Position numbers and translations under genes: made by a program | NCBI RefSeq assembly: GCF_963921235.1 | Contig: NC_086107.1 | Location: forward strand, 102,674,001-102,738,000 | DNA: 64,000 bases | Source: Mobula hypostoma | Lineage: Eukaryota | Direction of reading: 5' to 3' | Notes under the pieces: model-generated | The model's input: only the letters and a program-made list of their open reading frames with translations | Database searches by the model: none | Told to the model about the DNA's origin: nothing | In this document: piece by piece, positions 2,232 to 63,100 of the stretch | How positions within the stretch are numbered: the first letter of the stretch is position 1 | Layout: the number at the start of each line of letters is the position of its first letter

Positions 2232-3829
2232 GTGAGACAATCTCAGTCCGTTCTCACCTGGTCGCCATTCTACCTGCTTTCTGGCAAAAGGCAGTAGGTA
2301 ATAGTCAGGGGCCACTGAGGTTCAAAGATCAAGCGATTCAGATTAATTCAGTTTTGGCGATGGGCATTTATTGAATGGGTGGTGATGGTACTTTCTTGTA
2401 ACTCTGTGGTCATTGTTCTCCCACAGTGCTGTTGGGTTATAGTTCCAGTATTTAGACTTGGTAATGATCAATGGACAGCAAGTTTTTTAAAGCAAAATGC
2501 TGGAGGAACTCAAAAGGGTCAGGCATCATCCACTCTGTATCTCAATAAATAAATCTGTGGAAATGAATAAACAATTGATGCTTCAGTCTGAGACCTTTCA
2601 CCAGGACTGGAAAGGAAGGGGGCAGGTCAAAGTAAGGGGTATTTTCATTTGATTTGATTTATTACTCTTCCAATTATTTCTTTTCGAAGTTTTAGATTTG
2701 ATCAGAAAGTCGTATCCTCAGAATGGACTACCCAGTCCCCGTTTTTCCCCCTCTTTTCTTATAGTGTAGTGTTTTTTTTCTTCTCCTTTAAAAAATTGTA
2801 AGTTTTTTTTCTCTCCCTATGAATTGATAAGAGGAGAATTAGTTGTCTTTATTATATATTACGCATTTGCTTAATACTATGTATGATTTTGATAATGTCT
2901 ATTTCACTTTCTGTTTGTATTGTTATTGATAATTATATTTGAGAAAATTCTCCTCTTGTTTGTATATATGCCCTTTCTAAATCAATAAAAAGATTAATAA
3001 AGGAAGAATGAATGTAGTTTAAAATAAAAAAAAGAAGCTGGGGGAGTAGAAGAGATACAAGTGAGAAGGTGATAGGTGAAGACGAATGAGGGAGGGGGGA
3101 TGAAGTAAGAAGCTGGGAAGTGGAGAAGGAATCTGACAGGAGAGGAGAGTGGACCATGAGTGAAGGGGAAGGAGGGGGAGGTGATTATGCAGGTGAGGAG
3201 AAGACAAGGGCCAGAGTGGGGAAATGAAGAGCGGGGAGGGAGAAATTTTCAGCTTTCCACACCTGATGGAAATTGGTAGTGAAGGATTGGGGTGGATTTG
3301 CTGTCAGAGTCCACCTAAGTAAGAGTCATGGTCACCATCCAGACCCTGCTGTCTTCTCATTGGGCAGGAAGTGCAGGAGCCTTGGGTCCCACTCCCCCAA
3401 GTTCTGGAACAGTTATCACCCCTCAACTGCCAGGCTCCTGAATCAGAGTGGATAACTTCATTCACCTCAACTCTGAACTGAAATCACAACCTATGCACTT
3501 GCTTTCAAGGACTCCACAACTCACGTTCTCATTAGTTAGTTATTTATTATGTTGTTTTATCTTTTTATATTTTGCACATTGGTTGTTTGTGCATCTCTGT
3601 TTGTGTGTTGTTTTTCATTGATTCTATTGTGTCTCTTTGTATTTACTGTGAATGCCCGCAAGAAAATTAATCACAAGGTAGCGTGCGGTGACATGTATGT
3701 ACTTTGGTAATAAAATTTACTATGTACTTTGTACAATGTGAGCCATCAGACAACAGTAGTCTGCAGGAGAGTGTAAGGAGATCCAGAATTTTGCTCCTTC
3801 CTAACGATCACCCCCTCTTTCTGCGTCAG

Positions 3830-8640: not shown

Positions 8641-8963
8641 AGACAATGCTTTAAGAAGAAGTTGGATCACTGTTCTGTATTAACTCAACTGTCTTTGCTG
8701 AACCAAGCTCAGAGTTCGTGGTAGGAAGACGATAGAAATTTAAGAAAGGCCCAGGGAGTGTTTCTGGCTCAACAAAAATCCACAGGTGTGTGGATGTGTG
8801 AGAGGCAGAATCCACTAATTATTGTTGTAAAAGTGGTATTGAAAAACACAAGATGCTGGGAATGCACAACAGGTTAGGAGGCATCTGTGGGGAGAGAGAG
8901 AGAGAGGGTTAATATTTCAAGTCCATGATGTTAAGAAATACCCAGCCTACTGAATATCTGCAG

Positions 8964-9171
8964 CACACATAAAATTTGCTGGTGAACGCAGCAGGCCAGG
9001 CAGCATCTCTAGGAAGAGGTGCAGTCGACGTTTCAGGCCGAGACCCTTCGTCAGGAAACGTCGACTGCACCTCTTCCTAGAAATGCTGCCTGGCCTGCTG
9101 CGTTCACCAGCAACTTTTATGTGCATTGCTTGAATTTCCAGCATCTGCAGAATTCCTGTTCTTTGTGTTTT
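8964..9171. mobile_element. Fold-back Penelope-derived element with 13-bp TSD
   Basis: Inverted arms around a short loop; tgaatatctgcag repeated at 8951-8963 and 9172-9184. Confidence 0.8.
9022..9056 (-). ncRNA. Minimal hammerhead ribozyme core (Penelope-associated); 5' strand of stem I displaced
   Basis: Minus strand reads CUGACGA-AGG gucucgg CCU-GAAAC-GUC-gacug. Confidence 0.6.
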
Positions 9172-11059: not shown

Positions 11060-11265
11060 ATATAGTGAGTAAGGGGGAATGCAAGTTTGGAGATCGCTGT
11101 ACGTTTGCGTACAGTCAGGAGGAGATAGATGTTTGGACACTGGAGCGTAAAGGGGCAATAAACCGCGAGCTACTCTTCGATCCACTTGGGGGTGATACCA
11201 GATGCAGCCTCACGGTAGCTAAGCTGCTGAAGGAACATCTTGGCCACTTTATGTACCTTTGTGAG
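11060..11265 (+). CDS. ZC3H7A: ZC3H7 coding exon completing the degenerate C-x7-C-x5-C-x3-Y finger (DIVSKGECKFGDRCTFAYSQEEIDVWTLERKG...YLCE)
   Basis: ttgcag|AT acceptor, GAG|gtgaga donor, phase 1/0. Motif CTFAY.QEEIDVWT.ERKG. Confidence 0.95.
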
Positions 11266-12586
11266 GTGAGATACCGTAGCACAAGTGCATGCCTCTTAAT
11301 GCCAACATCTCTTTGCTCTATTTCAATTAACGCAACACCTCAATGTTATGTTCCCTGTGGCTTGGATCTCTCAGTGAGCCCTATTTATCTCTGTAACCTG
11401 CTCTGGTCTTTTTGTGCGTCCCTGATTTTAATATTTCCCAATGTTTCCAACTCCCATGGCTTGGAGCTATAAAAACTTCCCCCTAAAGCTCTGCCTGTCT
11501 ACCTTTCTCTTTTTCTATCTCACTTCAGCTGCAATGCTCATTAAAATATACCTTCCTGATGAGGTTTATCTATCCTGGTACTTCCTTCTTTGGTGTCTTA
11601 AGTGTATTCATTAGTAATAATCATGATCATTACTTTGCTATGTAAGTGGTGCCTAATAAATACAAGTTGTTACTGGTTCACTTGTCAGTCCATTACCAAA
11701 TATAGAGCACCGAACATTCAACCTATTCTACCAGTTTTTAACTATACACTCTTCTTCCTTTTATTATCTAACTTTTGCCTTTTCCCTCATGTATTTGTGT
11801 AGCTTTCCCCTTAAATAAATAGTGCCAGTTGGCACTGTATATATCATATCAAAAACTTTTGTGTCTAAACACCAAGCACAAAGCAGTCATAATCGGGCTT
11901 GCGTTCCCAAGCCACACGCACAAAGGGAGCTGGAGGAACTCGGCAGGTCAGACGGCATCTACGGAGGGAAATGGACAGTCAACGTTTTGGGTCGGGACCC
12001 TTCATCACTGAAGCAGCGCCATAGGACCCTTCACCGCCGACCTGAAATGTCAACTGTCCATTTTCCTCCATAACCCGCTGTGTTCCTCCAGCACAGTTTG
12101 TGTGTTGCTACAGGTCTCCAGTATCTGCAGTCTTTTGTGTTTTCATTCCTAATACTGCCTTCTTTTTATTGTGACTTTAGAATGTGCTCAGAACATCTCT
12201 CCATCCCTGGCATTCCCTGCCATAAGGGTGGATGCTGAGTGAATGAGTATATTAGGGGCTGAGACTCATAGGTTTTCAGACACTACGGAGATACTGTTAG
12301 GACTTCCTCTGTTAGCGTACAGACACACTAATTCTCATCGGGACCATAAATGCCACGTGGGCTATTGCTGCAGGTGATAGGTTAATGTGACGTACATTTT
12401 ATGTAGTACCAGCTTTGGGAGAAGTGGGGCTTTTTGAAGCAATTCTAGTGGCATAGAGATGAAATCTCCATGGCAGCTCCAGTACCATATAGATTGTGTG
12501 TAAGCATGAGGAAGTTGGTAGATGCTGGAAATCCAAAGCAACACGGGGGGGCGATCTCAGCAGGTCAGGCAGCAGCTATGGAGATT

Positions 12587-23520: not shown

Positions 23521-25388
23521 CTATCAGGCAGTGTGATATGGAGAAACTACAGATGCTGGAACCTGGAGCTAAGAAATGAAACTGCTGGAGCAACTCAGCA
23601 GATCACAGAGCATCTGATGAACTTGGGCTTGAAGGATCTTGAACTGTAACATCGGTGGTCCTTTTCCCTCCTCGGATGCTGCCTGACCCTGAGTTCCTCT
23701 AGCACTTTGTTTTTGACAGCGTAATCTGAAGCTCATTATCTCTGCCCATTACATTAAATAAATTATACTTGGATGTTGCCTCTACATTACTGGGAAGTTT
23801 TTACCTTTATTATCATATCAGATAAACCTATTGAATATTGAAACGCTTAGATAGAGTGGACGTGGAAAGTATGTTTCCTGTGGAGGGGGAGACTAGGACC
23901 AGAAAGCACAACGTCAGAGTAGAAGAATGCTCCTTTAGAACGGAGATGAGGGAGAACACACACAAAATGCTGGAGGAACTCAGCAGGTCAGGTATCATCT
24001 ATCGAAATGAAGAAACTGCTGACATTTAAAGCTGAGATCCTTCTTCAGGACTGGAAGGAAATGGAGAAGGTGCCGTAATAAAAAGCCTGGGGGTGGGGTG
24101 GTGGGGGGGGGAGAGGATTAGCTAGAAGGTGTTGGGTGAATCCAATCGCAAACGAAAGAAAATCTGCAGATGCTGGAAATCAAAGCGACACACACAAAAT
24201 ATTGGAGGAACTCAGCAGGCCAGGCAGCATCAATGGATGAAATGTACAGTCGACATTTTGAGACCCTTTGGCAGGACTGGAGAAAAAAATGAAAAAAAGG
24301 TGTTAGGTGAAGCCAGCTGGCTGGGAAAGGTAAAGGGCTGGAGGAGCAACACATTCCACACCATCTAGGCAGCCTCCATCCTGATGGCATGAACATTGAT
24401 TTCTCCTTCCCGTATTTTTTTTCCTCCCGCCCCCCCCCCCCAGTCTTCTATTACCCACTCTGGCCACTTACCTCTTCTCATCTGCCTATCACATCTCCAT
24501 GGTGCCCCTCCTCCTTCCCTTTCTCCATGTATCACTCGCCTCTCCTATCAGATTCCTTCCTCTCCAGCCCTTTATCTTTCCTACCCCCTAGGCTTCACCT
24601 ATCATCCTCTAGCTAGCCTCCTTTCCCTCCACCCACCTTTCTATTCTGGCATCTTCCCCCATTCTGAAGAAAGGTCTTGGCCCGAAATGTTGACTTCTTT
24701 TCTAAGGATGCTATTTGACCTGCTGAGTTCCTTCAGCATTTTGTGTGTGTTGCTCTGGATTTCCAGCATCTGCAGAATCTATTCTTAAGAAATGAGAAGG
24801 AATTTCTTTAGCAAGAGGGTGGTGAACGTGTGAAATTCATTGCCACATGCGGCTCTGGAGGCCAAATCATTGGGTATATTTAAAGTGAAGGTTGATAGGT
24901 TCTTGATTAGTAAGGGCATCAAAGGTTGGGGAGAGAAGGCAGGAGAATGGGATTGAGAGGGATAGTAAATCAGCCATGATGGAATGGTGGAGCAGATTCA
25001 ATGGGCCGAATAGCCTAATTCTGCTTGTATGTCTTATGGTTTTCTAGTCTTACAACTTTTCATAGTTTAAAATGTTCTATTAGTTTTTACGAAGAGAGAG
25101 GCAATCAGCGTAATGTTAAGTTTATGACAATAGCATTTTGTTCAACGAAGGTATTAAAGGATATGGAGCTATTGAAAGTGAGCCATAGATGAACCATGAT
25201 TGCATTGCAGGCTGGAGTAGACTCCAGTGTTCTTGCCTCTCAGCTCTAATGGGAATTCTCCAGCTTCTCCAATCCATCCTTCTGAATGTAATCCCTATTA
25301 CTGGAACCATTCCACCAGACCTCTTCCATACCCCCCTCAGAATCGTCGCCTCTTCCTGAAGAGTGACGCTACTCTTCTTTTTGTGCAG

Positions 25389-34426: not shown

Positions 34427-37064
34427 GACATGTATATGCTCTGATAATAAATTTTACTTTGAACTTTAATTCCTCTCCTGAGCTCCAATCACAGAACCAA
34501 ACAGAACAATTTGTTCCTATGTGGACTTCCAGTCAACCTGCTTAGCTTCCTGAAGGAGGCATACAACAGACACAAAATCAGGGATTTCCCTTGTCCAAAA
34601 CTCACTGCAGGAAGTAGAGTAAATCTCCAGCCCGCCTTCTCCTGGACTCCAAACACTCACTACTGCGATTAGAACCATTCGCCTTTGCAACCCTATATGT
34701 GCTCTTTCCCTTTTCTCTATGCCCCAGTGTCTAACACAACTCTCCAGCCTTGCACTGACCTGTTGCCACACCTCACCACCCCCCCCGCCATTCTCCAACC
34801 CTCCAAACGAAATGGACCTATGGACCACATAGAATGGGGCAGTTGATTGCAATCTCCCCCAGTGAGGTAGTAAATTTACACTGAACCAGGAAGATCTCGC
34901 TGCAATCCTTGGTCCGTGACAATTCAGCTAATTTTCCATGGGATGGCTTCAGAGGTTAAAGAAGGGCTTGTTAGCCTGGCTTATATCCTGACGTCAATGC
35001 TAAAATTCTCACTGAAGGGTGGATATTGCTACAAAGCCCCTGCAATCATTACCCGTATAGATTCCTTTCTAAGTCATGTGCATGAGGTTGTGTCACAGGC
35101 GGCCACTTGAGTGTGTTGATTAGAAATTCAATGAGTGAAACAGCTTGTTAACAAAAGAAAACCTTGTGTTTGTGTTAATGAAAGAATTCAGATTTCTAAA
35201 GTGATATTTGTGCCCTTGTGATACGAAAGAGTAGGGACATTACGTTGCACTGGTTAGACCAGGGGTTCCTAACTTCATTCTTACCCTCAGTCATTAGGCT
35301 TTATAATGAGTCAATCTATAGCTGGAGAAGTGATGACCCCTTGCTGTTAGACTGTTTGAGGTAACTTATTTTCTATTCTTTCGTACTTCTCTTCTAATAT
35401 TTGTATATCTGTGCATTTATAATGCTACTGTGACACTTTGGGATCAATAAAGTATCTATCTATCTCATCTTTTTTATGCTATGGACCAATATCATTGAGC
35501 AAGGGGTCTGTGGAGCCCTGGTTGAGAACTGTATTTAAGAATATTTTGTACAGTTTCGGTTGCCTCACTACAGGAAGAATGTTAGCAATAGAGATTCACC
35601 AGGATGTTGTTTGAAATGGTGGCTGGTCGTTACAGCAGAAGAAGATATTGGATAGCCTGGGCTTATTCTCATTGTAGGAGAGAGGGAGGTTTATGAGATA
35701 CCAGTGGTCGGATTCTTTGTCCCAGGCCAGCTGAGGAGAACTGGAGAGCGCAAGTCAGAGGTGAGAGGGGACAAATTTAAAGTAGATGTGAGGGGTAAGT
35801 TTTCCATGCAGGGAGCGTGGTGAGCAAGCTGCCAGAGGAGCTGGTAGAGGCAGACACAGCAGTAATGTTTAAACTGCACTTAGGGACAGGTACGCAGGGG
35901 TTCCCAACCTGGGCTCCACGCACCCATTAAGCCCCTTGCTTAATGGTATTGGCCCATGGCATGAAAAAGGTTGTGAACCCCTGGTGTAGAGGGATAAGGG
36001 CTGATTGCTGGCAAATAGAGTTGGTGTGGACAGGCATTATGATTGAGATGCTCCAAAAGGATCTGTTCCTGAGATATATAATTTTTATAATTTAAAGTAC
36101 TTTACAATGGTTGAATACTTGCAAGGTGTGATTTTTGGTAGAGAATAGTAAATTAAGCAGATGGTTTATCTCTACCCAGATCTCACAAATAGCAATATGA
36201 TAACTTTAGTGATAATGACGGACGAAGTGGGAGTTCCTCTCCACTTCAAGTAGTACCCTGGGATGTTTAGCATACTTTTTAGAGAAAACCTGCAGATGCT
36301 GGAAATCCAAGCAACACACATGAAATGCTGGAGGAACTCAGCAGTCCAGGCAGCAACATTTTTTTCCTCCTGTCCTGATGAAGGGTCTCGGCCCAAAACA
36401 TCGACTGTACTTTTTTTCCGTAGATGCTGTTTTTTCCATAGATAGCGCCCTGGCCTGCTGAGTTCCTCCAGCATTTTGTGTGTGATACTTCTGAGAGGCT
36501 GGGTGGACCTGGTTCAATGAATCGTCTGCAGGATGATTGCATTGATTCCTCTGTACTGCCACAAGATGTCAGTGTAGGTCGACGTGTTCAACCACATGCA
36601 TTCATGAAGCACCGTGAGCATGGTTGAGAGCTTCAGCAACAGGTTTATTGAGGTGTTGGACAGAATGGGAGGTGCCTGTAACATGATGCCAGGTGAGGTA
36701 GTGGAAGTGGATACCAGAGAAACATTTACGAGACGTTTAGACAGGCCCATGAAAGTGGGGAATGGAGGGAGCCAGACCACGGGCAGGCATATGTAGCTTC
36801 TTACTCAACATGGATGTCGTAGGCTGAAAGATTTGTTACTGTGCAATGCTGTACTGTGCTCTATGTCCTAAAACTCGACTCAAGAGTCAAATGAAATTCT
36901 GAAAGTAACCTGGATTTATGTTTGGTAGTTAGTAAGTTAGTGATAATTTGAGGTTTAAAAAAATAATGGTACAGTTTCCTCCTGAGACTTTACAGTAAAA
37001 CATATTAATGAAGGAGTTTTTAAAGATGTGATATTTAACAGCAATTATAATACACCAGTTACAG

Positions 37065-43705: not shown

Positions 43706-44072
43706 TAAAACCTATGTGTATAACTGGAGCCAGTGAGGAATGTAAATGGAAGCTGGGTAGATATGGGAGGGAGAAGAGTAAAGGAGACATTGATAATGAG
43801 AAGATGAGAGGTGTAGGGGAATTTCTGTGGAGCAGAGACACAACTGTAGACTGTAGAAGGGTTTCGGCCCGAAACGTCGACTGTATCTCTTCCTAGAGAT
43901 GCTGCCTGGCCTGCTGCGTTCACCAGCAACTTTGATGTGTGTTGTAGACTAGTTGCCTGGAATGCTTTGCTTACTAATGCACTGGGAAAGGTGGAGGGCC
44001 TAGAGGGGCTGAGCGGCGTCCTGTTCCCTTGTTCCTGTCCGAATGACTCTCCCACTCTTCTCCTTCCCCCAG

Positions 44073-47200: not shown

Positions 47201-50200
47201 CCATCTGCTGTCTTTCAGTGCCAGGTATGGCTGAGAGCAGCATGCACATTTGGATCACTTGGTTGGGTTGAGTTGAAGCTCTACTTTGCAGAGCAGCAGA
47301 AGCCAAAAGAACGTTTCAAGTATAGGAATTTGCGGATTTTGCCCAAAATCACCTTCCTTAGTATATTTAAGGTGGGGGGAGTGAAAGAACTGAGATATCT
47401 TTATGATTTTTCACTTTGAGTAGTTAAGAAAGGGAATTTTTCCGAGCTAGTGATTTGATTGATGAGCCAAAATAACCAGCTGCCTTGAGCATTGTTTTGA
47501 GTACAAGTTAAGGGCTTTCTTACTACCCTGTTCATACGGGGACTTGTCTTCACAAAACATGGTTTAGATGTGCTTCACAATGTAATAAGTATCAGATCAA
47601 GTGATTTTGTCCAGATCATGTTGGAGTTTATTGTTTGCAGAGTCTGCAAAAGATGTTCCAAGGATGGAATCAGTTGGCTGGACAGCACACTCTACTTGAA
47701 AGTGGAAATTCATGGGTTTCTTTCTCAGTACAATTGCCCTAGGGTCCAGGAATTACTCTCCAGGACATTGCTATGTACCAATCATGCAGAAAAATCAGAG
47801 TGCGATTTCAAAAAAAAATCCTTTTTATTTTGCATCTTAGGCCTATATCACATTCTGCCTGGTGTCATCAATAGGTTGTCATTTGCAAAGTTAAGGTGAA
47901 TAGGTGTAAGTGGTTTTTTTTTTAGGAAGTTTGCTGGTTACCAATCTTTTACCAATTTTACTGTTTCTAGTAAACTTTTCTATATAGTTTGAAAAATATT
48001 AGATGTGCTTGTGCTTAGATAGCTAAGAATCATCCAATTGGGTATTAAGTCATATTACTTTCCTATTGGTTTAGGAAGGTTGGGTTGTGAGATTGGAAGT
48101 GTTTAACAGGAGTGTTGGACAGGGCATTTATTAAGAGACCATGTGGTTCCACCTCCAAGAGTATGACCATTCAGAATTGGTCATCCCCAGGGCAGAAGCA
48201 ACTGAAGGATACAAGACCTCTACGTAATACAGAAGTGGAATTTTGCTACCTAGCTCGCAATATAAAAATCTTAAGATTTAAGGCAAAGCTGCACTTGTTA
48301 CAGAGCCAAACAGAGATGTTTGAGGAAACATGGTGGGTCTTGGTGCACAGGAGACAGTGCACGCATTAATCATATTATCACCCAGGCAGAGAGACTGCAA
48401 ATTATTATTAGAGAAAAGGGGAATGATCTTCTTCCTTTATATCCCTGATAATCAACTGTTAAATAAGATTTGATAAGTAAGTTTGGCGCAAGGCCACAGT
48501 TAACAGATAACCTGGTTCAGTTAATTTTGTTTTCTGCAACCATTTCTTACTTTAGGAATCTAAGTAAGGTGTGAATTTAGGAAATTATGAAATAAGATTT
48601 TACTACAGATGCACATTTCAAATGTTATAAATATTATAATATCAATGGCATTAGGTGATTGTCGGGAATTGTACTCAAAATCATTGGAGATGTGACTAAT
48701 CTTTTTTCCATTAAACTTGTCCTGCTTTGCATTGGGCTGACAATCAGAGTGTCAGGCATGAACGAAATAAATCAGAAATATTTGGTAATCAAAAGAAAAA
48801 AACAAAATGAGAAAGGTGGAAAGTGTATTCGGCTAAGAATTGGTTATCAAGACCAGACCTCGGCTGTAATGCTGTTGACAGCCTTCAGGATCAAATGCAA
48901 GAGTTATGAGAAGGCTAGAAGGCTGTTTCAAATGGGTTTGCTAATTCACAATGTGTTCCTGGATTCTGCAGTAGTCCTGAATCTCCCCACGTCATTTTGT
49001 CATGCTGGACCCCTTGACATCAGGACAAGCTGGCAGAAGCCTGCAGTACTGCAAAATCCTGGAGGCACTTGGTGGGTTTGGCAGCATCTATGGGTGGGGG
49101 TGGAATGGTTACTTGGTGTTTCAGATCAAGCCTCTTCTTCTGGACAGGTTGAGACCCTTCATCTGAGTCATTCCGAAATGCCGACTGTCCATTTTCCTCC
49201 ATAGATGCTGCCTGGCCCACTGAAATCCTCCAACAGTTTTAGTGTTGCTCCTGATTCCACCACCTTGTAGTCCCCTCTGGCTCCAAAATCCTGGAATATG
49301 CCTTATGGAATACACTTGCACCAGGATTACACTGATGAATGGGAAATGGTTACAGATTTAAAAGACAGTCATTGTAAATGAACATCTTATTTATTTTAGA
49401 CCAAAATAAATCCTAATAATTCAGGTTGGTTTAGTACAGAATCCAGAATATGTTAATTCGATATGGCATTATCGAAGAAGCATTAGTCATTCAGTCTGGA
49501 GAAAATGAGATTGTTTGCATTAGAAAAAAGATAATCAGATTGGCATAATTGTATTTATGAAATTATGTTATATAAATCATAGTGGGGGAAAACTGGCTGA
49601 ATAATAATTCAAATTATGAATTACTAAAGGTGAGATTAAGGGAACACCTTTGTAGAGAGTTTTTAAGTTATTAACTGTATTATGAAAACACGATTGTTTT
49701 TAAATTGCTAGTAGATAAAGATCTAAAATAATTTGTTTAAATGGCTGTGGGGAGAGGGCAAGACCACGAAGAGAGCTCCACAGTCTGTACAGAGCGGTGA
49801 ACACTCTGGGATAATAAAATTGTATTGGACCTACATTCTGAAATATTCATTTCTGAAGGTATGACGAAGAGGGTTTATAGTATGGCAGTCTTCGATCCCA
49901 CCTATGTCCCAAGTCCATAACTGGGTGACTCTGACAGTGCTAGCCAGATATCGGTCATCTACAGACCGGAAATGTATTTGGAGGTCTGGGTGACAGGTGG
50001 TGGGGGGGGGCAGCTTCGTGACAACGTGCAGCTTAAAAGTCAGGGTGTGTCAAAGGGTCTTGACTGGAGACGTGGAAGGGGGAAAAATCTATAACTTTGT
50101 TGGAAGGGAACTGAAGTGCTAACCAAGGAGACATAACCCTGACACGTACCCCTCAGCCATACTGCAGGTTAATCAGCACTCTAGCCACTTCCTCCATGGT

Positions 50201-52100: not shown

Positions 52101-52343
52101 CTTCAGATAATTGGTACAAAAGCGAACACCTGCAGATGCCAGAAACCTGAAATAAAAACAGGAAATACTGTAAGTGCTCAATGTGGGGAAATGAGAGATC
52201 AAGTTTCAACAGCAGTTACAGAATAAGCAAGTAAAGAATCAGAGAAAGGGTGGTAGAGAAGAAAACCAATAATCTGACATAGACTGGCATCCAGAGGTGA
52301 TTTAAATGGATAAAAGATGTATAACAATCTACAGATAATACTC

Positions 52344-52795
52344 AAACACGAGGAAATCTACAGATGCTGGAATTTCAAGCAACACACATAAAAGTTGCTG
52401 GTGAACGCAGCAGGCCAGGCAGCATCTCTAGGAAGAGGTACAGTCGACGTTATTTATATACACACATTCTTTTCCTCTCTCTCCTTTTTTTCCCCTCTGT
52501 CCCTCTGACTATACCCCTTGCCCATCCTCTGGGTCATCCCCCCCCTTCCTTCTCCCTGGGCCTCCTGTCCCATGATTCTCTCATATCCCTTTTGCCAATC
52601 ACCTGTCCAGTTCTTGGCTCCATCCCTCCCCCTCCTGTCTTCTCCTATCATTCTGGATCTCCCCCTCCCCCTCCCACTTTCAAATCTCTTACTAACTCTT
52701 CCTTCAGTTAGTCCTGACGAAGGATCTCGGCCCAAAACGTCGACTGTACCTCTTCCTAGAGATGCTGCCTGGCCTGCTGCGTTCACCAGCAACTT
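52344..52795 (+). mobile_element. Penelope-derived insertion: inverted terminal segment, 3' UTR and hammerhead-like motif (52710-52745), 14-bp TSD
   Basis: tacagataatactc at 52330-52343 and 52796-52809. 52390-52450 is inverted relative to 52736-52796. The body is the reverse complement of 59030-59375. Confidence 0.88.
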
Positions 52796-55700
52796 TACAG
52801 ATAATACTCTATAGATGGAATGGAGTGTGTGACTTGCCTTACAGCAAAGTCTGGAAGACAAAACAAATAAAATTTATTCATTGAAAATTCTATTTAAACA
52901 TCTAGAGAGGGATTCAGAACTGCTTCAACTCCTGATAAAAGGGTAATCTCTCAAGAAATCTGTGCTGAATGAAGGATAGATGCACATTTCTACCTGAAAG
53001 GATTAGAAGGATATAGGCTGAATTCAGGCAACTGGGACTAGCTCAGGTAGGCATCTTGGTCGGCATGGATGAGTTGGGCCGAAGGGTCTGTTTCCACGCT
53101 GCACAATTCTATGACACTAGAATTGGTCTCAATCCATTTGATTACCAGGTTTGATTGACAGGCAAATGGCCCAATCATAGTCATCTCTGTTTAGCAACCA
53201 ATAATGTGAAATCAGTAAAGAAATTAAAGCTGGATTAAGGAAGGGCATAAATAGAAACAGCGAGACCAGCTCCTGTTCAGAGCAGCACTGATACCAGTAC
53301 TAAACTGTTAAAATTTAATGTCAAAACCAGATCTGTAGATAAAATAATGAGCTATTACATCAACATAGAACAGTTAAATCTTTTACACAAGAGATTCTGC
53401 AGATGCTGGAGATCCAGAGCAACACACATAAAATGCTGGAGGATCTCAGCAGGTCAGGAAGCATTTATAAACATGAATAAACGGTTGGTGTTTCTGGCCA
53501 AGAACTTTCATCAGGACTGAAATTTTTAAATTTCATTCCATATAAAAAATTATTTAGATAAATTCAATTGCTTAGATATATCTGTATAACTGTATCTAAA
53601 ATTATTCCATTTATCTATTTATCTTCCATCCCATTAGCAGATGTGATCATTTTGAATGGTGGGGCAGGGTCAAGTGGTTTACTCATACTCTGCTCCACTT
53701 GCTCATAGAGTAGCAGCACGCAAACACCCCCTTCAGCCCAGCTTGTCAATGCCAACCAAGATGCGCATCTAAGCTAGTCCCATTTACCCATGTTTAGCCT
53801 ATGAACCTAAGCAGAGTCATAATTTGGACAAAGGAAAGTGGCTGTGGCTGTTGGTGACCTATCATCTAAGTTTCAGGACATCAGCCTGACCTTCCCTCCA
53901 GCACAGGGGTTCATTTTTATGCCATGGACCCTTACCATTAACTGAGGGGTCTGTGGACCCCAGTTTGGGAACCCTTGCTCTAGCAAACAGAAGTAGGGAT
54001 GTTCACTGTTGAGTGTAGATGTTTTAGTTCCATTCACAACCCCTCAGCGATGGAAGATATCCTTACTTGTATGCAATAAGATCAAGTCAACATTCAGGTG
54101 TGGGCCTGTAAATGGTAACAGTCGCACTACAAAAGTGTGGTACAATGGCTGTCTCCAACGAGAGGGAAACAAGCTACCTACGCTTAACATTAAATGATAT
54201 TTCCATCACTGTGTCCCCTTTTAATATTCTGGGAGTCACCATCAATGATGTGACTACAAGAACCGGCTGGGTTCCATAATGATCGCATTGGGAGGGAGCT
54301 GCCATTTCACCCTGCGCTGATGCTGAAAGAATCAAATGAGGATAAATATTAGCCTTCCCACTCTTAGACCAGGAGGTCCTTCAAAAGAGTTTACTTACTA
54401 AAGTCCAAGTGGAAAACTATTGGACATCCACTGTAAGAACTGGATTATTTCTTCAAAGTACGGTGGCGATGCTAGCTGCACTAGCCTGCAAAACTGAGGC
54501 CTCTGAGTCATTGTGTCTGCAACGTTTCAACTCGCCTCACCAGATGGCACCTGACCATGGGACCCAGCAAAAGAGTTATCACTCACGTTCACATCAGAGA
54601 GGACATGCAGGAGCTTGAAGACTTGCCCGATGTTTTAGGAATAGCTACTTCCCCTCCGCCATCAGAATTCTGAATAGGCAATGAAGCAACCCATTGCCAC
54701 ACCATTTTGCCCTCTTTTTGCACTACTTGTTTAATTTATATGTGTAATTCGCAGTATTTTTATGTATTGCATTGTGTTGCTGTTGCAAAGCAACAAATTT
54801 CATGTAATACATCAGTGATAACAAACCTGATTCTGATCCGGCTGGTGCATTTTGGGATCTCTGAGGCAGTAGAATCCATGAATGCTTTATTGTTCATCTG
54901 CTGACATTTCCTGGCTAATCTGATTCATGGGTGCCCCCTGACCCGGGGATGCTGTCTTCAACTGTACTGGGCATTTCACTCAAGCCCTCATCCCTATACC
55001 CACTGCTGTCCCTTCCTGGACACCCTATCAGTGTGTATTAATGGTTTCAAATCCAAACCAGGCTGATCTTCCCCGGTTATTTATTAAGGCTTTGTCACCA
55101 ACACCGTGTCGATTAAGCAAACCAGAAAGTGGATCAGATTTCATTCAGTTCGTTGACTCAGACTAGTGGCACCTACCGTTGTATTTCTTCACCTTTCTAC
55201 CCGTTGAACTAATTGTGATGCCTGGGAGCTTACAAAGAACAGGTTTGAGATCGTTTGGATGACAAATTTGCCATGTGTAACACTGACCCAGTTTCTGATT
55301 GGCTGCAGCAGTGAGAATTTCACAAATCAGTCTCCTCCCATACCCGTCAGCTGCTTGGGCAACTGAAAAGTTCAGATCTAATTAGCTAGTTGCACGCATC
55401 CTCTGAAATCAACACTTGATGTTGTATAACAGGAAGGTTCCATTTACAGAACCAGACTGTATCTAATTCCACTCCCTCCTGGGTGGCAGTCCCTTTATAT
55501 GTGCAATAAAAAAACACAAAATGCTGGAAACACTCAGCAAGTCGGACAGCATCGGCACAGAGGGAACCTTTCAGAGCAAAGACTTTCCATTAGAGTGCAA
55601 TAGTCATCAATTGTCGAAACTTGCGCTGGGAAATTCTGATGTATTTTACAGAACAAAATATCCCAAGGCGCTTCAAAGCAATGCGTCTAAGCAATATTTC

Positions 55701-58413
55701 ATTCTTAGCGGCATATTAGGAAAGAAGGTGAGAAGCTTTATGGAGCATCTTAAAAAAAAAATGAAACTCAGAAGTACATTTAGGGAAGAGGTTAAGGGGG
55801 GGAAGTTCAGGTAATAGTGCCATGGCATCAGAAGACAGCCATGGCTGCATGGTAGTGCAGTGGTTAGTGTAACGCTATTACAATGCCAGCGATTAGTGAC
55901 TGGGGTTCAATTCCCACCACGGTCTGTAAGGAAATTGTACAGTCTCACCACGACCACATGGGTTTCTTCCAGGTGCTCTGGTTTCCTCCCACAGTCCAAA
56001 GACTATAGGTTAGAGTTAGTAAGCTGTGGGCCTGCCACACTGGCACCAGAAGCATAGTGACACTTGCAGGCTGCACCCCACCCCCTGCCCCAGCACATAT
56101 TTGGACTGTGTTGCAAATGACGCATTTCACTGTATGTTTCAATATTTTGAGTACGTGTGAAAAACAAAGCTAATCTTGACCTTAAATCTAAAGTTAGGAA
56201 AGTGGTAATTGTCACAGTTCCAGGTATGGAAATGATATCAAGGACCATATATCCCTGGAGACACAAGACACCATAGACACTGGAACCCAGGAGATCAGGC
56301 AGCACCTATGGAGGGTAATGGACAGTCCAAGCTTCAGGTGGAAACTCTTCATCGTGTACCTTTGACCTCTCTTGACTTGTTATTAGAAGATATTGTATGT
56401 GCCACACTTAAGGGATCATACCTATCCACTATACATATTCTGTGGTTTGGAATTAGAGCACAGCAGAAACCCATGTACCCCATTGTGCAAGTGACTGCTC
56501 CTTGAACTATTACTCTAAGCCTCTGCTCTTCCCAGAGCTCTGTTGCCTCTATGACTACTTACCCAATTCACTTTTGAAAATTGAAATTTGGTTACACAGC
56601 CCTTTCAGTAGTTACAATCCAGGTGGTGACACTTCGTGAAAACAATTCTCTACCTCCCTCACTCTCCGGTTTGTCAATGCCTCATGCAACTACAGGAGCT
56701 TTAGTATACATGCTTCTGCTTATTTTTTATTGTTTATTATTTATTATTGAGAGACAGCATGAATAGGCCCTTTTGGCCCTTCGAGCCATGCTGCCCAGCA
56801 ATCCCCCGATTTAATCCTAGTCTAACCATGGGACAATTTACAATGACCAATTAATCTACTAACTGCTACATACTTGGACTGTGGGAGGAAAACTGGAACA
56901 CCCAGAGGAAACCCATGTGGTCACAGCAAGAACGTACAAACTCCTTACAGGCAGCGGTGGGAATTGAACCCTGGTCTCCTGTGCCGTAAAGCATTCTGCT
57001 AGCCACTTACACTACCATGCCAAGAGCCAAACCCTCCCTCAAGATGATGTCATTTTTACTCCTTCCAATCTAATACAATGCATTCAGTGCCCATAATGTG
57101 GTTTCCACTGCACTGGAGAAAGCAAACAGATTAGGCTACTCCTTTGCAGAAAATCTCCATTAGTCTGCTAGGATGGCCCTGGTCTTTTACCTGTCTCTGG
57201 CTTTAATTCCCCATCCCACTCCCACTCTGCTGTATCGTTGGTCTCTTACACTGTTCCAGTGAAGCCCAACATTGACTCAAGGAACTGCATCTCATCTTCC
57301 ATTTAGGTATGCTACAGGGTTCAACTCTTGTCGACCAGATAGATGAAAGATCATCGAACAAGTATATCAACTCTCTTTCTCTCTCTCTCACCACAGATGA
57401 AGCCTTACCTCGTGAGTATTACCACCACTTTTTTGCTCATTTTTCGGATTTCCAGCACTGCAGTTTTTGGAATTTCAGTCCTAAAAGGTTCTAACTTTTA
57501 TAAGGTCTTGGCCCGAAACATTGACTCTATTCCTTTCCATAGATGCTGCCAGACATGCTCCAGTGTTCTGTGTGTGTGTGTGTTACACTTAATGTTTATA
57601 AAATGCACACAGGTCCTAGTGGATATTAGATTAGATTATGAGGACATGCAGTCCTCTTTTATTGTCATTTAGTAATGCATGCATTAAGAAATGATACAAT
57701 GTTTTTCCAGAATGATATCACAGAGACACATGACAAACCAGGACTGAAAAACTGACAAAAACCACATAATTATAACATATAGTTACAACAGTGCAAAGCA
57801 ATACTGTAATTTGATGGAAGAACAGACCATGGGCACGGTAAAAAAAAAGTCTCAAAGTCTCTCGAAAGTCCCATCATCTCACGCAGACGGTAGAAGGAAT
57901 AAAAACTCTCCTTCCCATGAACCTCCAGCGCCGCAAACTTGCCAATGCAGCACCCTGGAAGCACCCGACCACAGCCGACTCTTGAGTCCGTCCGAAAACT
58001 TCGAGCCTCCGACCAGCCCTCCGACACCGAGCACCGAGCACCATCTCTGCCGAGCGCTTCGACCCTGGCCCCGGCAACAGGCAATAGGCAAAGCCGAGGA
58101 TTTGGGGAATTCCCCTCCGGAGATTCTCAGGAGAATCAAAGTTTACATCTCAATCTTTCTCACCCCTCTGGTCCTTTATCCAATCTAATGGTCGTTTTTG
58201 TGCTTTGTTTATACTATTTTTACACTCTACTGACAAAACCATACCCTTGTGCTAGATAACTATTCATCATCTGCAAGCAGATTAGTGTTTTACATAACAG
58301 CTCAAACAAACCAATTATTTTATTTAGACCAAAGAAGGTTAATAGATTTAATAGAGGTGTTGAAAATTATGAAATTAAATTAGTTCCAAGAGAGTCAGTA
58401 AACAAATTACATA

Positions 58414-58749: not shown

Positions 58750-58983
58750 AAACAAATTACATAACTTTAAGATAACCGCCAGAAGTGTGAGTTTTCATTT
58801 CGGCCAGTTAGCAAAGACGTGAAAGAAGATTCAGATGGGAGAGGCAGATTCAATTGACTCCTGGATTACAACAGGATATTAGATGTACCGAAAAGCAGGA
58901 AATAATCCTCGGGGCGGGCGGGGGAAGAGCAGAGAACTGGCAACATGTTTCTTTCCAAAGTCTGCACAGGAATAATGAGCAGA

Positions 58984-59606
58984 CAACAGGAATTCTGCAG
59001 ATGCTGGAAATTCAAGCAACACACATCAGTTGCTGGTGAACGCAGCGGGCCAGGCAGCATCTACAGGAAGAGGTACAGTCCATGTTTTGGGCCGAGACCC
59101 TTCGTCAGGACTAACTGAAAGAAGAGCTAGTAAGAGATTTGAAAGTGGGAGGGGGAGGGGCAGATCCGAAATGATAGGAGAAGACAGGAGGGGGAGGGAT
59201 GGAGCCAAGAGCTGGACAGGTGATTGGCAAAGGGGATATGAGAGGATCATGGGACAGGAGGCCCAGGGAGAAGGAAAAAAAGGGGGGGGAACCCAGAGGA
59301 TGGGCAAGGGGTATAGTCAGAGGGACAGAGGGAGAAAAAGGAGAGAGAGAGAGAAAGAATGCGTGTATATAAATAAATAACGGATGGGGTACGGGGGGAG
59401 GTGGGCATTAGCGGAAGTTAGAGAAGTCAATGTTCATGCCATCAGGTTGGAGGCTACCCAGACGGAATATAAGGTGTTGTTCCTCCAACCTGAGTGTGGC
59501 TTCATCTTTACAGTAGAGGAGGCCGTGGATAGACATGTCAGAATGGGAATGGGATGTGGAATTAAAATGTGTGGCCACTGGGAGATCCTGCTTTCCCTGG
59601 CGGACA
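58984..59606 (-). mobile_element. Penelope-like retroelement 3' end: GIY-YIG endonuclease C-terminus, pyrimidine-rich UTR, hammerhead-like motif
   Basis: ORF 59408-59626 LPVATHFNSTSHS..LRLEEQHLIFRLGSLQPDGMN is characteristic of PLE endonuclease ends. Minus strand reads agtc CTGACGA agggtctcggccc aaaac atg gact at 59077-59112. Confidence 0.88.
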
Positions 59607-60069
59607 GAGCAGAGTAACTCATTCATAATGTATGAATTATATAAATATACATTATGTTTATGTCATTCTAATAGAACTATATATATACATAATATATGCT
59701 TCTGTAATTCCAGTAGAACAAGACCGAAGCTGTGGCCTTGCTGATCCTCGTGGTTCAATCCTACACTGAAGATCACACTCTCTGAAGGAAGGCCACCACT
59801 GTTACAGTCTATATTTATTTTTAAGCATACATCCCACAGATCAGAAAACTGTATGCAAACTCCATTCTAATGTCAGCTTTACTTTAGAGACTTCTGTAAC
59901 AGAGAGCTGCTAAGGCAGGGAGTCCCACCTTCTTTATGCCATGGACCCCTACCATTATCCAAGGCGTCTGTGGACTTCGGGTGGGAACCCCTGTTCTAGG
60001 GCCTCTTCTGGAGAAATCTGAATGTCTGAGGCATCCCAGAGTTTGTCATACCGCCCCCCCCTTAGGATG

Positions 60070-60968
60070 TATGTACAAGGATGAAACAGCCTACAGGCTT
60101 GAGGTGGATCATCTGACGGAGTGGTGTAAGGACAACCACCTGGTCCTTAACACTTCTAAAATGAAAGAGATGATCATTGACTTCAGGAGGTCAAAGGACA
60201 GAGTACACACCCCCCTCCATATACATGGAGAGGTAGTGGAAAGTGTGGAAAACCTAAAGTTCCTTGGAGCTATGTTGTCAAAACAGCTGACATGGACCAC
60301 CAACACCTCGTTGCTTGTAAAAAAGGCACAACAAAGACTCTTCTTCATCAGAAAGCTGAAACAGGCCAAACTCCCACAAAAGCTGTTGCTTAACTTCTAC
60401 AGAAGCACAATTGAAGAACAGCACCACAGTGTGGTGTGCCAGCTGCACAGCCGCTGAGCGACAAGACCCGCATCGCGTGGTGAAGGCGGCCCAGACGACT
60501 GTCAGGATGGAGCTCCCAGGACTGGACACCATCTATTCCAGCAGACTCAGGAGGAAAGCAATCAGCATAACCAGAGACACCACACACCCCGGCCACACCC
60601 TGTTTGACCTGCAGTCGTCCAGCAAAAGGTTCAGGACACTAAAAGCCAGAACAAATAGACTGAGGAACAGCTTCTATCCCAGAGCCGTGGCCTCCATCAC
60701 ACCACTCCCACAGAACAATGACTGAAACTGTGAGCACAGACATGCCCACACAAGGACTCAAATAGTTGCACTAACGGCACTTTGTGCATTACTGTGATAT
60801 TCTGGTGCTGCTGCAACTTATTTTCTGTTACTTACCTATTTAATATTGTTTTTCTATTACTGTCTTGTTTTTATCTACCGCTCTATTTAATAGCCTGAGA
60901 GGAAGCCAGAGTTTCATTGTACCGATGTATAATGACAATAAAGATCATTCAGTTCAATTCAGTTCAAC
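60070..60968 (+). mobile_element. Rex1/Babar-like LINE 3' portion with short tandem tail
   Basis: DETAYRLEVDHLTEWCKDNHLVLNTSKMKEMIIDFRR, KKAQQRLFFIRKL and RTNRLRNSFYPRAV; ends aataaa..(ttcag/ttcaa)n. Confidence 0.88.
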
Positions 60969-62953: not shown

Positions 62954-63100
62954 CGTCAGGACTACGAAGGGTCTCGGCCCGAAACGTCGACTGTACCTCT
63001 TCCTATAGATGCCGCCTGGCCTGTTGCATTCACCAGCATTTTTTATGTGTGTTGCTTGAATTTCCAACACCTGCAGATTTCCTCATGTTTACTGTTTTTG
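62954..63100 (+). mobile_element. Penelope-derived terminal fragment with the 3' half of the hammerhead intact
   Basis: cgaagggtctcggcccGAAACGTCgactg followed by the family tail. Confidence 0.8.

What the first reader, a model, noticed from the sequence alone, without database searches (positions are those of the whole stretch)
52710..52745. Dispersed Penelope-derived family carries a minimal type I hammerhead ribozyme
Seen: about a dozen copies share one motif (+ strand near 14056, 24661, 36372, 43856, 52710, 62965; - strand near 2580, 9022, 11977, 12590, 14436, 24022, 53490, 59077). The consensus is AGUC-CUGAYGA-A-GGGucucggCCC-GAAAC-GUC-GACU. This gives stem I (AGUC/GACU), the CUGANGA core, stem II, GAAA, a stem III reduced to the palindrome ACGU, and a GUC cleavage triplet. 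At 59077-59112 the motif lies downstream of a GIY-YIG endonuclease C-terminus, tying it to Penelope-like elements. Known: PLEs carry minimal hammerheads with palindromic stem III, thought to act as dimers. Inference: this is a very high-copy ribozyme-bearing retroelement system in this fish lineage, with copies inside a protein-coding pre-mRNA. No single copy here is fully intact; the consensus is assembled from several.
Basis: partly seen in the sequence, partly recalled or inferred. Interest (0 to 1): 0.8.

Follow-up and report, generated by a model that had tools for sequence, protein, structure and literature searches.

The report
Decayed hammerhead copies from Penelope retroelements
This is a mutated, dead copy of the small self-cutting "hammerhead" RNA motif that Penelope-like jumping genes carry near their ends; the family is real and enormously abundant in this genome, but it is a kind of element already described in other animals.

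Summary

The family is the 3' end, or pseudo-LTR, of an endonuclease-bearing Penelope-like element (PLE). [quoted passage not shown] It is flanked by two direct copies of the motif 3,516 bp apart.

The motif fits the published "minimal hammerhead" of metazoan PLEs feature by feature (PMC4209133). Rfam's hammerhead models do not detect it.

None of the 17 window copies that span the motif is complete.

Cleavage was not tested, and no RNA data could be used. No insertion in my sample starts at the predicted cut site (0 of 36).

Verdict: a new member of a known kind, of modest interest. Side observations are single-event inverted insertions with target-site duplications, and 5' ends that pile up inside the ribozyme.

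The parts
52710..52745 (+). Focal decayed min-hammerhead. Helix I 5' strand is 52710-52713, the CUGANGA box 52714-52720, the unpaired A 52721. Helix II is 52722-52725 paired with 52730-52733, with loop 52726-52729. The GAAA box is 52734-52737, with G12 mutated to A at 52734. The ACGU palindrome is 52737-52740, C17 is 52741, and the helix I 3' strand is 52742-52745. There is a second change at 52724 (G to A in helix II).
52344..52795 (.). The whole insertion that holds the focal copy. It is a head-to-head inverted pair made in one event: an inverted arm at 52344-52451 (- strand; runs from just before the cut site out to the 'tail') joined to a forward 5'-truncated arm at 52450-52795 (3' UTR, hammerhead, short 3' end).
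52330..52343 (.). Left copy of the 14-bp target-site duplication. The right copy is at 52796-52809.
52796..52809 (.). Right copy of the 14-bp target-site duplication.
58959..59622 (-). Longest window copy: the last ~70 codons of the element's ORF, the 3' UTR, a decayed hammerhead (59077-59112; G12 to A and further changes) and the 3' end with tail.
59411..59662 (-). Open frame of 84 codons. Residues 15-84 are 96-99% identical to the C-terminus of the element's RT/GIY-YIG protein in many genomic copies.
8964..9171 (.). Second single-event inverted pair, flanked by a 13-bp target-site duplication (8951-8963 and 9172-9184). It holds the only window hammerhead with all core letters (9027-9054, - strand), but this copy lacks the helix I 5' strand. 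As RNA it would be a ~146-nt perfect hairpin, and it matches miRNA-precursor models for that reason alone.
2571..2638 (-). Old, decayed copy (older subfamily with C at helix I position 2.5).
11896..12135 (.). Decayed inverted pair (11896-12011 -, 12038-12135 +).
12550..12667 (-). Old decayed copy.
13973..14093 (+). Old decayed copy (G8 to A).
14332..14480 (-). Old decayed copy (A13 to G).
16634..16828 (.). Inverted pair of 3' ends; one arm has the tail and one does not.
23955..24278 (-). Two decayed copies in the same orientation, ~90 bp apart (23955-24059 and 24145-24278).
24583..24782 (+). Old decayed copy.
36282..36487 (.). Inverted pair. The forward arm carries a hammerhead near 36372-36410 with G12 to A.
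43851..43945 (+). Young copy 5'-truncated at the first core box, which is also mutated.
49080..49145 (-). Weak, decayed copy (E 0.058).
53380..53519 (-). Old decayed copy.
56266..56353 (-). Old decayed copy.
62963..63093 (+). Young copy 5'-truncated inside the first core box; carries the tail.

Best explanation
The motif is a fossil copy of the minimal type I hammerhead (min-HHR) that lies in the pseudo-LTR / 3' UTR of a very abundant, recently active Penelope-like retroelement. The element has an endonuclease and a Neptune-type Cys linker. SHOWN: In master copies the motif lies ~300 nt after the stop codon. It lies ~55 nt or ~95 nt before two alternative 3' ends (the PLE 'tail'). It occurs again in the upstream pseudo-LTR, ~60 nt before the first in-frame ATG. 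The window copies are 5'-truncated retrocopies, often made as head-to-head inverted pairs in one insertion event with 13-16-bp target-site duplications. All of them have lost core letters or a helix strand, mostly through CpG decay. INFERRED from published PLE hammerheads: In transcripts of intact elements two motifs pair through their ACGU palindromes to build a shared helix III. They then cut after GUC, probably slowly and with help from the element's own protein. What the cut is for remains open. My sample argues that cutting is not on the path to insertion. Every retrocopy carries the uncut site internally, 55-95 nt from its 3' end, and none begins at the cut site.
For: Family and abundance: there are 114,221 genomic matches at 2 or fewer mismatches against 0 for the reversed control. 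The ORF C-terminus gives 160,793 first-look candidates, of which 150 were scored, all with E<=2.7e-39. The unbiased sample (window plus 16 random 10-kb loci, 224 kb) has 34 hits and 5.7% coverage.

PLE identity: L021 has an open frame of 1,064 codons. Pfam gives RVT_1 at residues 555-717 and GIY-YIG at 967-1041, in that order. ADKGG, YIDD, C-x4-C-x2-C and GVIY...YIGET motifs are visible. Two direct motif copies lie at 2033-2060 and 5549-5576 inside ~335-bp direct repeats. L023 has the upstream copy inverted. The 3' ends are bimodal: 11 at model positions 320-348, 16 at 355-385 and 7 elsewhere, out of 34. Language-model look-alikes are animal RT/GIY-YIG clusters scoring 0.96-0.98 (a lead only).

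Hammerhead fit: the CUGANGA and GAAA boxes and the GUC triplet are present. Helix I has 4 bp plus a fifth pair, which is U.G in one subfamily and C-G in the older one. One nucleotide is unpaired after A9. Helix II has 4 bp, closed by G-C or G.U. ACGU stands in place of helix III. These are the features listed for metazoan PLE min-HHRs in PMC4209133 (results and discussion read).

Conservation: in contigs from runs of four coded organisms, sequences that share the block lose likeness exactly at its two outer ends. The counts are 89, 58, 3 and 16 contigs just before L021 5545, and 113, 59, 5 and 17 just behind 5581. The only two sites inside the block that vary at 20% or more are position 11.1 (C/U) and position 17 (C/U), both tolerated by hammerheads.

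Sister families: the same genome holds other min-HHR families with the same boxes but different helices. On 16 copies, helix II is paired in 90.6% of cells. Two pairs change on both sides (U-A/G-C in 11/5 copies; A-U/U-A in 6/5). Slid controls pair in 24-45% of cells.
Against: No cleavage or RNA evidence exists here; no listed run is on record as RNA. Rfam hammerhead models give no hit at the window copies or on an intact master copy even at E<=10 in 121 nt. A covariance model built from the sister families scores the main family at only 11.4 bits, E about 2. Within the main family, helix II does not vary and helix I shows only one one-sided change, so the family's own helices lack true covariation. 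The density of variable sites in the block (2 in 37 nt) is not clearly lower than in the flanks (30 in 315 nt upstream, 6 in 79 nt downstream), and both variable sites are CpG transitions. Nearest-neighbour folding does not favour the active fold. The monomer MFE (-11.0 kcal/mol) pairs part of the first core box with the cut site. The double hammerhead evaluates at -11.5 to -12.9, against a dimer MFE of -30. The Pfam RT and GIY-YIG scores are below the curated cut-offs (23.2 against 29.6; 20.4 against 22.6). 0 of 36 sampled copies begin at the cut site.
Confidence: 0.88

Rival explanations
1. The 37-nt block is kept for a job other than cutting, and its hammerhead likeness is vestigial or parasitic. 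It could be a folded RNA element that the element's RT/EN recognises. It could be a roadblock or switch point for reverse transcription. It could be a promoter-proximal element of the pseudo-LTR.
For: 5' ends and inverted-pair junctions pile up in the 5' half of the block: 16 of 36 sampled copies start at model positions 931-972, and 6 of the 21 with 30 bits or more start at 948-972. None starts at the cut site. Folding favours a rod-like inactive hairpin. An Inr-like TCAGTT lies 5-10 nt upstream of the first core box. In the sister families a TATAAA lies ~40-45 nt upstream. In print, PAc hammerhead mutants still insert in vitro and no RNA-seq ends were seen at the site (PMC11167929, passages). 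HHR-less Naiads proliferate well, and the authors remark that HHRs may 'simply parasitize PLEs' (PMC8557442, passages).
Against: The exact catalytic boxes, the ACGU palindrome and a GUC triplet are retained across subfamilies, across sister families with different helices, and across species. A mere protein-binding site or promoter would not require that. Published PLE hammerheads do cut, although weakly or only with protein help (PMC4209133; PMC11167929).
Confidence: 0.15
2. Chance resemblance: a repeat that happens to contain the short hammerhead boxes.
For: The boxes are short. A loose descriptor matches 2,572 places in the genome, but its reversed control also matches 1,177.
Against: The position is the same in both pseudo-LTRs of a bona fide PLE. 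All the published min-HHR extras are present: the unpaired nucleotide, the G10.1 closing pair and the palindrome. Conservation boundaries coincide with the ends of helix I. Sister families show compensatory helix II changes.
Confidence: 0.01
3. A host-recruited ribozyme that processes the host pre-mRNA at this locus.
For: At best a possible host exon lies at 11032-11469 (+), with sub-threshold CCCH zinc-finger hits.
Against: 0 of 17 window copies are complete, and the focal one has G12 to A. The copies lie on both strands. Minimal hammerheads are not expected to act as single copies (PMC4209133).
Confidence: 0.01

Closest known systems
Minimal hammerheads (min-HHR) in the pseudo-LTRs of metazoan Penelope-like elements, including Xena, Poseidon and Neptune of fishes (Cervera & de la Pena 2014, PMC4209133)
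   Same: Type I topology, with a 4-5-bp helix I and one unpaired nucleotide between A9 and 10.1. A G at 10.1 closes helix II. There is no helix III hairpin, only a palindromic ACGU, so action as a dimer is expected. One motif sits in each pseudo-LTR, and most genomic motifs are solitary copies on truncated elements.
   Different: Helix II here is short (4 bp plus a 4-nt loop), whereas 6-8 bp is described for many PLE min-HHRs. The youngest copies close it with G.U instead of G-C. Copy number is far higher than the ~4,000 (coelacanth) and ~9,000 (Xenopus) quoted in that paper. This particular family was not found in print by my searches. Repbase and Dfam could not be consulted.
PAc, Poseidon element of Anolis carolinensis (Mob DNA 2024, PMC11167929; passages read)
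   Same: Both are EN+ PLEs with a hammerhead in the pseudo-LTR close to the start of the ORF. Both have two alternative 3' ends 30-40 bp apart (the 'tail'). Both show evidence that both target strands are used: in vitro for PAc, and here as single-event inverted pairs with the tail on one arm only.
   Different: In PAc the ORF starts inside the ribozyme. Here the first in-frame ATG is ~60 nt downstream of the cut site. PAc activity (protein-assisted cleavage) was measured; nothing was measured here. The Cys linker points to the Neptune type rather than Poseidon.
Non-LTR retrozymes: short tandem repeats with type I hammerheads, proposed non-autonomous derivatives of PLE pseudo-LTRs (PMC7229834 abstract; bioRxiv 10.64898/2026.07.22.740005, results read)
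   Same: Both use the same class of ribozyme and have a PLE-derived sequence context. A sister family in this genome does form a 120-bp tandem array with one min-HHR per unit (L036 274-624, 2.9 copies).
   Different: The family of the finding is dispersed, not tandem; the window has no array of it. It is the end of an autonomous, coding element.
Rfam RF00163 Hammerhead_1 (canonical type I)
   Same: The same catalytic boxes and the same order of helices.
   Different: The model expects a closed helix III. No hit was found at any threshold tried.

Membership tests
Minimal type I hammerhead of metazoan PLEs (min-HHR) | CUGANGA box, GAAA box and an NUH cut-site triplet in type I order | tested here: met
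   Met in the family consensus and in master copies. NOT met in the focal window copy (G12 to A at 52734). 0 of 17 window copies are complete.
Minimal type I hammerhead of metazoan PLEs (min-HHR) | Open helix I of 4-5 bp | tested here: met
   There are four Watson-Crick pairs plus a fifth. The fifth pair is U.G in the young subfamily and C-G in the older one (loose-end consensus).
Minimal type I hammerhead of metazoan PLEs (min-HHR) | One unpaired nucleotide between A9 and 10.1, and a G10.1-C11.1 closing pair of helix II | tested here: met
   The unpaired A is present in all intact copies. The closing pair is G-C in one variant and G.U in the full-length copies L021, L023 and L024.
Minimal type I hammerhead of metazoan PLEs (min-HHR) | No helix III hairpin; palindromic 15.1-16.1 (ACGU) that can pair between two copies | tested here: met
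   Read directly from the sequence. Note that an overlapping 6-nt palindrome across the cut site offers a competing, non-productive dimer register (inference from the sequence; for energies).
Minimal type I hammerhead of metazoan PLEs (min-HHR) | Located in both pseudo-LTRs of a PLE | tested here: met
   L021 carries it at 2033-2060 and 5549-5576, 3,516 bp apart, flanking the ORF.
Minimal type I hammerhead of metazoan PLEs (min-HHR) | Helices supported by compensatory changes | tested here: inconclusive
   In the main family there is one one-sided change in helix I, and helix II is invariant. In the sister families of the same genome there are two two-sided changes in helix II, with 90.6% of cells paired against 24-45% in slid controls. 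A model built from the sister families does not score the main family significantly.
Minimal type I hammerhead of metazoan PLEs (min-HHR) | Self-cleavage after H17, as a dimer | not testable with these tools
   No RNA run is listed, and contigs cannot show RNA ends.
Rfam RF00163 Hammerhead_1 | Score at or above the gathering cut-off (34 bits) | tested here: not met
   There is no hammerhead hit at any motif copy in the window. There is none on the intact L021 5500-5620 at E<=10 or on the sister-family loci.
EN+ Penelope-like element (Neptune type) | Single ORF with RT followed by a C-terminal GIY-YIG endonuclease | tested here: met
   Pfam gives RVT_1 at 555-717 (23.2 bits, cut-off 29.6) and GIY-YIG at 967-1041 (20.4 bits, cut-off 22.6), both below their cut-offs. 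YIDD and GVIY...YIGET are visible in the translation.
EN+ Penelope-like element (Neptune type) | DKG motif, and a CX2-5CxxC linker between RT and EN (the linker marks the Neptune and Nematis clades) | tested here: met
   ADKGG and C-x4-C-x2-C are in the L021 translation. The criteria come from passages of PMC8557442.
EN+ Penelope-like element (Neptune type) | Pseudo-LTRs from partial tandems; an adjacent inverted 5'-truncated copy; an optional 30-40-bp tail, often at one end only | tested here: met
   L021 has direct ~335-bp repeats. There are 5 head-to-head pairs among the 34 hits of the unbiased sample, each with a short 3' end on one arm and a tail on the other: 4 by model coordinates and 1 by its target-site duplication. 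The 3' ends are bimodal, ~38 bp apart.
EN+ Penelope-like element (Neptune type) | RT groups with PLE RTs in a phylogeny | not tested
   No reference PLE proteins were on hand. The language-model look-alikes are only a lead.
Non-LTR retrozyme | Short non-coding units in head-to-tail arrays, each with a hammerhead | tested here: not met
   There is no array of this family in the window; its copies are dispersed or inverted. Sister family D does form such an array.

The most novel reading that the evidence does not exclude
The hammerhead block folds on the template RNA in vivo and acts mainly as the place where reverse transcription stops or switches template. This would create the head-to-head inverted insertions typical of PLEs, while self-cleavage would be off the insertion pathway. 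With on the order of 10^5 copies, this genome would be the best natural data set for reading the function of PLE hammerheads from insertion footprints alone.
Probability: 0.2. Interest if true: 0.5.

Novelty: new member of a known kind. Interest (0 to 1): 0.25.

Why it matters
As it stands this is annotation: a high-copy PLE family with the expected minimal hammerhead, and a window full of its dead copies. Three things give it some value.

(1) Scale. Over 10^5 near-consensus motifs sit in one vertebrate genome, compared with the thousands quoted in the founding paper.

(2) Footprints. The insertion footprints bear on the open question of what PLE hammerheads are for. No insertion starts at the cut site. 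Every insertion was copied across an uncut site. 5' ends and inversion junctions cluster inside the ribozyme.

(3) Mechanism. Single-event inverted pairs, with target-site duplications and the tail on one arm only, are genomic support for the two-strand, two-start-site mechanism seen in vitro for an Anolis PLE.

Practically, such hairpin-forming pairs mimic miRNA precursors in model scans and should be masked.

Tried and rejected
- Rfam: the gathering and E-value scans of the window, and small-region scans of an intact master copy and of sister families, gave no hammerhead hit. The one Hammerhead_1 row (6927-7039 +, 19 bits, E 9.9) is unrelated noise.
- Hairpin artefact: in a small-region scan, the 8982-9107 hairpin matched many miRNA-precursor models below their cut-offs. 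This is an effect of the inverted pair, not a miRNA.
- Covariance model R1, built from sister families C/C2/D, scored main-family copies at only 11.4 bits, E about 2, which is not significant.
- RNA evidence: no RNA holder is listed. The four runs laid are contigs, which cannot show RNA ends or strand.
- PDB sequence search of the ORF found nothing meaningful. Pfam on the 84-codon fragment alone found nothing.
- Shared 5' start: several loci appeared to share a 5' start at query position 91. I rejected this as an artefact, because the query (the window copy) itself starts there.
- Candidate families rejected as hammerheads: 'family E' (L038-L040) has only 2 bp of helix I and lies in a larger hairpin; L041 is a single copy with a poor helix I.
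- Fuzzy-regex script: timed out and was replaced by blastn and nhmmer.
This leaves the 5'-end and tail statistics small: 34 and 36 hits.
- Papers: Lunse, Weinberg & Breaker (RNA Biol 2016/17), on PLE hammerhead dimers, is not held. I know it only from the reference list and text of PMC6765202 (passages read).
- Host gene: the 50 longest of 182 open frames of at least 75 codons were scanned. The only hits were a sub-threshold CCCH finger (11032-11469 +) and a DDE_3 transposase piece (21808-22152 +).

Full report
WHAT IS AT THE COORDINATES. In order it has a 4-nt helix I strand, the CUGANGA box and one extra A. Then come a 4-bp helix II with a 4-nt loop, the GAAA box, the palindrome ACGU, C17, and the complementary helix I strand. 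It differs from the family consensus at two places: 52724 (G to A in helix II) and 52734 (G12 to A). G12 is the general base of hammerhead catalysis (established knowledge).

THE FAMILY IN THE WINDOW. The 31-letter consensus pattern hits 6 window sites at 3 or fewer mismatches, with 0.00 expected from 100 shuffles. A blastn of 52450-52950 against the window gives 19 further pieces. A profile built from 20 genomic copies gives 32 rows, 26 of them with E<=0.01. Of the 17 rows that span the motif, only 9027-9054 (-) keeps every core letter, and that copy lacks the 5' strand of helix I. So 0 of 17 are complete. Most damage is CpG decay: G12 to A in four copies (12011-11900 -, 36372 +, 52594 +, 59228 -), G8 to A, and loss of the ACGU palindrome.

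THE CONSENSUS IS REAL AND VERY ABUNDANT. The window's own genome (G000; 3.48 Gb; window = contig 45) holds 57,199 + 57,022 matches to the pattern at 2 or fewer mismatches. The reversed control gives 0 + 0. The 100 rows shown are all perfect and lie in the first 45.3 Mb of contig 1. In an unbiased sample (the window plus 16 arbitrarily placed 10-kb loci, 224 kb) I find 34 hits to the pseudo-LTR region. Of these, 26 span the whole core, and 5.7% of the bases are covered by the last ~1 kb of the element. The 16 random loci alone give 15 hits in 160 kb. By extrapolation that is a few hundred thousand pieces genome-wide, but the sample is small.

IT IS THE END OF A PENELOPE-LIKE ELEMENT.
- The open frame 59411-59662 (-), directly upstream of the 59077-59112 copy, gives 160,793 first-look candidates in the genome. 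The 150 that were scored are 83-100% identical, and some sit at the end of open frames of up to 1,064 codons.
- I fetched four such loci. L021 has an open frame at 2055-5246 with motif copies at 2033-2060 and 5549-5576. These are direct and 3,516 bp apart, and lie inside ~335-bp direct repeats.
- Pfam sees RVT_1 (555-717) and then GIY-YIG (967-1041), both just under their curated cut-offs.
- The translation shows ADKGG, YIDD, a C-x4-C-x2-C linker and GVIY...YIGET.
- The DKG motif, the Cys linker of the Neptune and Nematis clades, pseudo-LTRs, adjacent inverted 5'-truncated copies and an optional 30-40-bp tail are the hallmarks given in PMC8557442 (passages read).
- L023 has its upstream motif inverted.
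- The 3' ends in the sample are bimodal: 11 at model positions 320-348 and 16 at 355-385, out of 34, which puts them ~38 bp apart. This is the 'tail' that PMC11167929 (passages read) explains by two internal start sites for reverse transcription.

FIT TO THE PUBLISHED MINIMAL HAMMERHEAD. PMC4209133 (results and discussion read) defines min-HHRs of metazoan PLEs by these features:
- a short helix I (4-5 bp);
- a conserved G10.1-C11.1 pair;
- palindromic 15.2-16.2 without a helix III hairpin;
- location in both pseudo-LTRs;
- mostly solitary genomic copies;
- weak cleavage in vitro, and only as dimers.

All the structural features are met here. One nuance is that the full-length copies close helix II with G.U.

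Rfam's hammerhead models expect a closed helix III. They find nothing at the window copies or on intact master copies.

COMPARATIVE EVIDENCE. Contigs from runs of four coded organisms hold this pseudo-LTR in hundreds to thousands of contigs in three of them and in 31 in the fourth (X9). A second lineage shares the block but loses likeness exactly at its edges. The counts are 89, 58, 3 and 16 contigs just before L021 5545 (the first nucleotide of helix I) and 113, 59, 5 and 17 just behind 5581 (the fifth pair of helix I). In that lineage the fifth helix I pair is C-G instead of U.G.

Inside the block only two sites vary at 20% or more. These are position 11.1 (C/U) and position 17 (C/U), both tolerated by hammerheads and both CpG transitions. 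The density of variable sites is not clearly lower than in the flanks: 2 in 37 nt, against 30 in 315 and 6 in 79. The argument therefore rests on the boundaries and on which sites vary, not on rate.

A loose descriptor that excludes the main family matched 2,572 places, against 1,177 for its reversed control. It uncovered sister min-HHR families with the same boxes and different helices. On 16 copies, helix II is paired in 90.6% of cells and has two pairs changed on both sides. Slid controls give 24-45% paired. Helix I has only three solid pairs. One sister family forms a 120-bp tandem array of 2.9 units, which is a retrozyme-like arrangement.

HOW IT MOST LIKELY WORKS. Shown: the positions of the motif relative to the ORF, the 3' ends and the repeats. 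Inferred from the literature: in transcripts of intact elements, two motifs pair through ACGU and each cuts after GUC, slowly and perhaps only with the element's protein (PMC4209133; PMC11167929). Nearest-neighbour folding does not favour this. The monomer MFE (-11.0 kcal/mol) pairs part of the first box with the cut site. The double hammerhead evaluates at -11.5 to -12.9, against a dimer MFE near -30.

The genomic footprints say that cutting is not on the way to insertion. The 3' ends lie 55-95 nt downstream of the cut site, so every retrocopy was made across an uncut or re-joined site. In addition, 0 of 36 sampled copies start at the cut site. This agrees with the PAc report that hammerhead mutants still insert in vitro and that no RNA-seq ends map to the site (PMC11167929).

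ANATOMY OF THE FOCAL INSERTION.
- The focal copy belongs to one insertion, 52344-52795, flanked by a 14-bp target-site duplication at 52330-52343 and 52796-52809.
- The insertion is a head-to-head pair. An inverted arm at 52344-52451 runs from a few nucleotides before the cut site out to the tail. It is joined to a forward arm at 52450-52795, which ends at the short 3' end.
- The pair 8964-9171 has the same build and a 13-bp duplication. A pair in L053 has a 16-bp duplication. Overall 3 of the 8 pairs examined have duplications of 13 bp or more.
- In all 5 pairs found with the pseudo-LTR query, one arm has the tail and the other does not: 4 by model coordinates and 1 by its duplication.

A SIDE OBSERVATION THAT MAY BE NEW. 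5' ends and inversion junctions pile up in the 5' half of the ribozyme. Of 36 sampled hits, 16 start at model positions 931-972, where the first box starts at 950 and the cut lies after 977. Of the 21 hits with 30 bits or more, 6 start at 948-972 and none at 772-947. Some weak hits start there only because older subfamilies diverge upstream. Possible causes are a stop or template switch of the reverse transcriptase at the GC-rich helix II, or a transcript 5' end just upstream. An Inr-like TCAGTT lies 5-10 nt before the first box. The sample is too small to decide between these.

NOVELTY AND VERDICT. The kind has been in print since 2014. Vertebrates, including one cartilaginous fish, were surveyed for related retrozymes in 2026 (bioRxiv 10.64898/2026.07.22.740005, results read). 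I found no paper on this particular family. I could not consult Repbase or Dfam, and supplements of the cited papers were not read. I rate it a new member of a known kind, with interest 0.25. The claim that copies lie in a protein-coding pre-mRNA remains unverified.

Noticed in passing
window 8964-9171 and 52344-52795; L053 8418-9764; L045 3275-3672: Head-to-head inverted pairs of the element are single insertion events. Target-site duplications of 13, 14 and 16 bp flank 3 of the 8 pairs examined. In each pair one arm ends at the short 3' end and the other carries the ~38-bp tail.
   Followed up: partly
model positions 931-972 of L021 4600-5646; e.g. window 43851, 62963, 9056, 52451; L045 3589: 5' ends and inversion junctions cluster in the 5' half of the hammerhead (16 of 36 sampled hits), and none lies at the predicted cut site. 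In three tight hairpin-type pairs (window 9056, L002, L008) the inverted arm starts 18-20 nt downstream of the start of the forward arm.
   Followed up: partly
L025-L037, L042-L044 (genome contig 1): Further min-hammerhead families have the same core boxes but different helices. Helix II is 6 bp with compensatory changes between families. A TATAAA lies ~40-45 nt upstream of the ribozyme.
   Followed up: partly
L036 274-624: A 120-bp tandem array (2.9 units, 87% matches) with one min-hammerhead per unit: a retrozyme-like arrangement of a sister family.
   Followed up: partly
window 8982-9107: The inverted pair folds as a ~146-nt near-perfect hairpin. It scores 40-59 bits against several miRNA-precursor models (all below their cut-offs), so it is a likely source of false miRNA calls.
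   Followed up: yes
window 63158-63380 (-): A fragment like eukaryotic large-subunit rRNA (65.6 bits; model positions 2391-3003 with large gaps) lies next to the element copy at 62963-63093. Its origin is unknown (retrocopy or rRNA-derived repeat).
   Followed up: no
window 59900-60457 (+): An open frame of 185 codons matches Pfam ALKBH8_N (64.5 bits). It looks like the C-terminal part of a LINE-type reverse transcriptase ORF and is unrelated to the Penelope-like element beside it.
   Followed up: no
window 21808-22152 (+): A piece of a DDE_3 (Tc1/mariner-type) transposase (35.1 bits).
   Followed up: no
window 11032-11469 (+): An open frame of 146 codons has sub-threshold CCCH zinc-finger hits (21.2 and 19.4 bits) and weak look-alikes among chordate CCCH proteins (0.85). 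It may be a host exon.
   Followed up: partly
window 33818-34248: A C/T-rich minisatellite (periods 19-86) that creates long spurious open frames on both strands.
   Followed up: no
L021 2121 and 2199: The first in-frame ATGs of the element's open frame lie ~60 and ~139 nt downstream of the upstream cut site. The first one falls in the stretch that forms the short 3' end of retrocopies.
   Followed up: no
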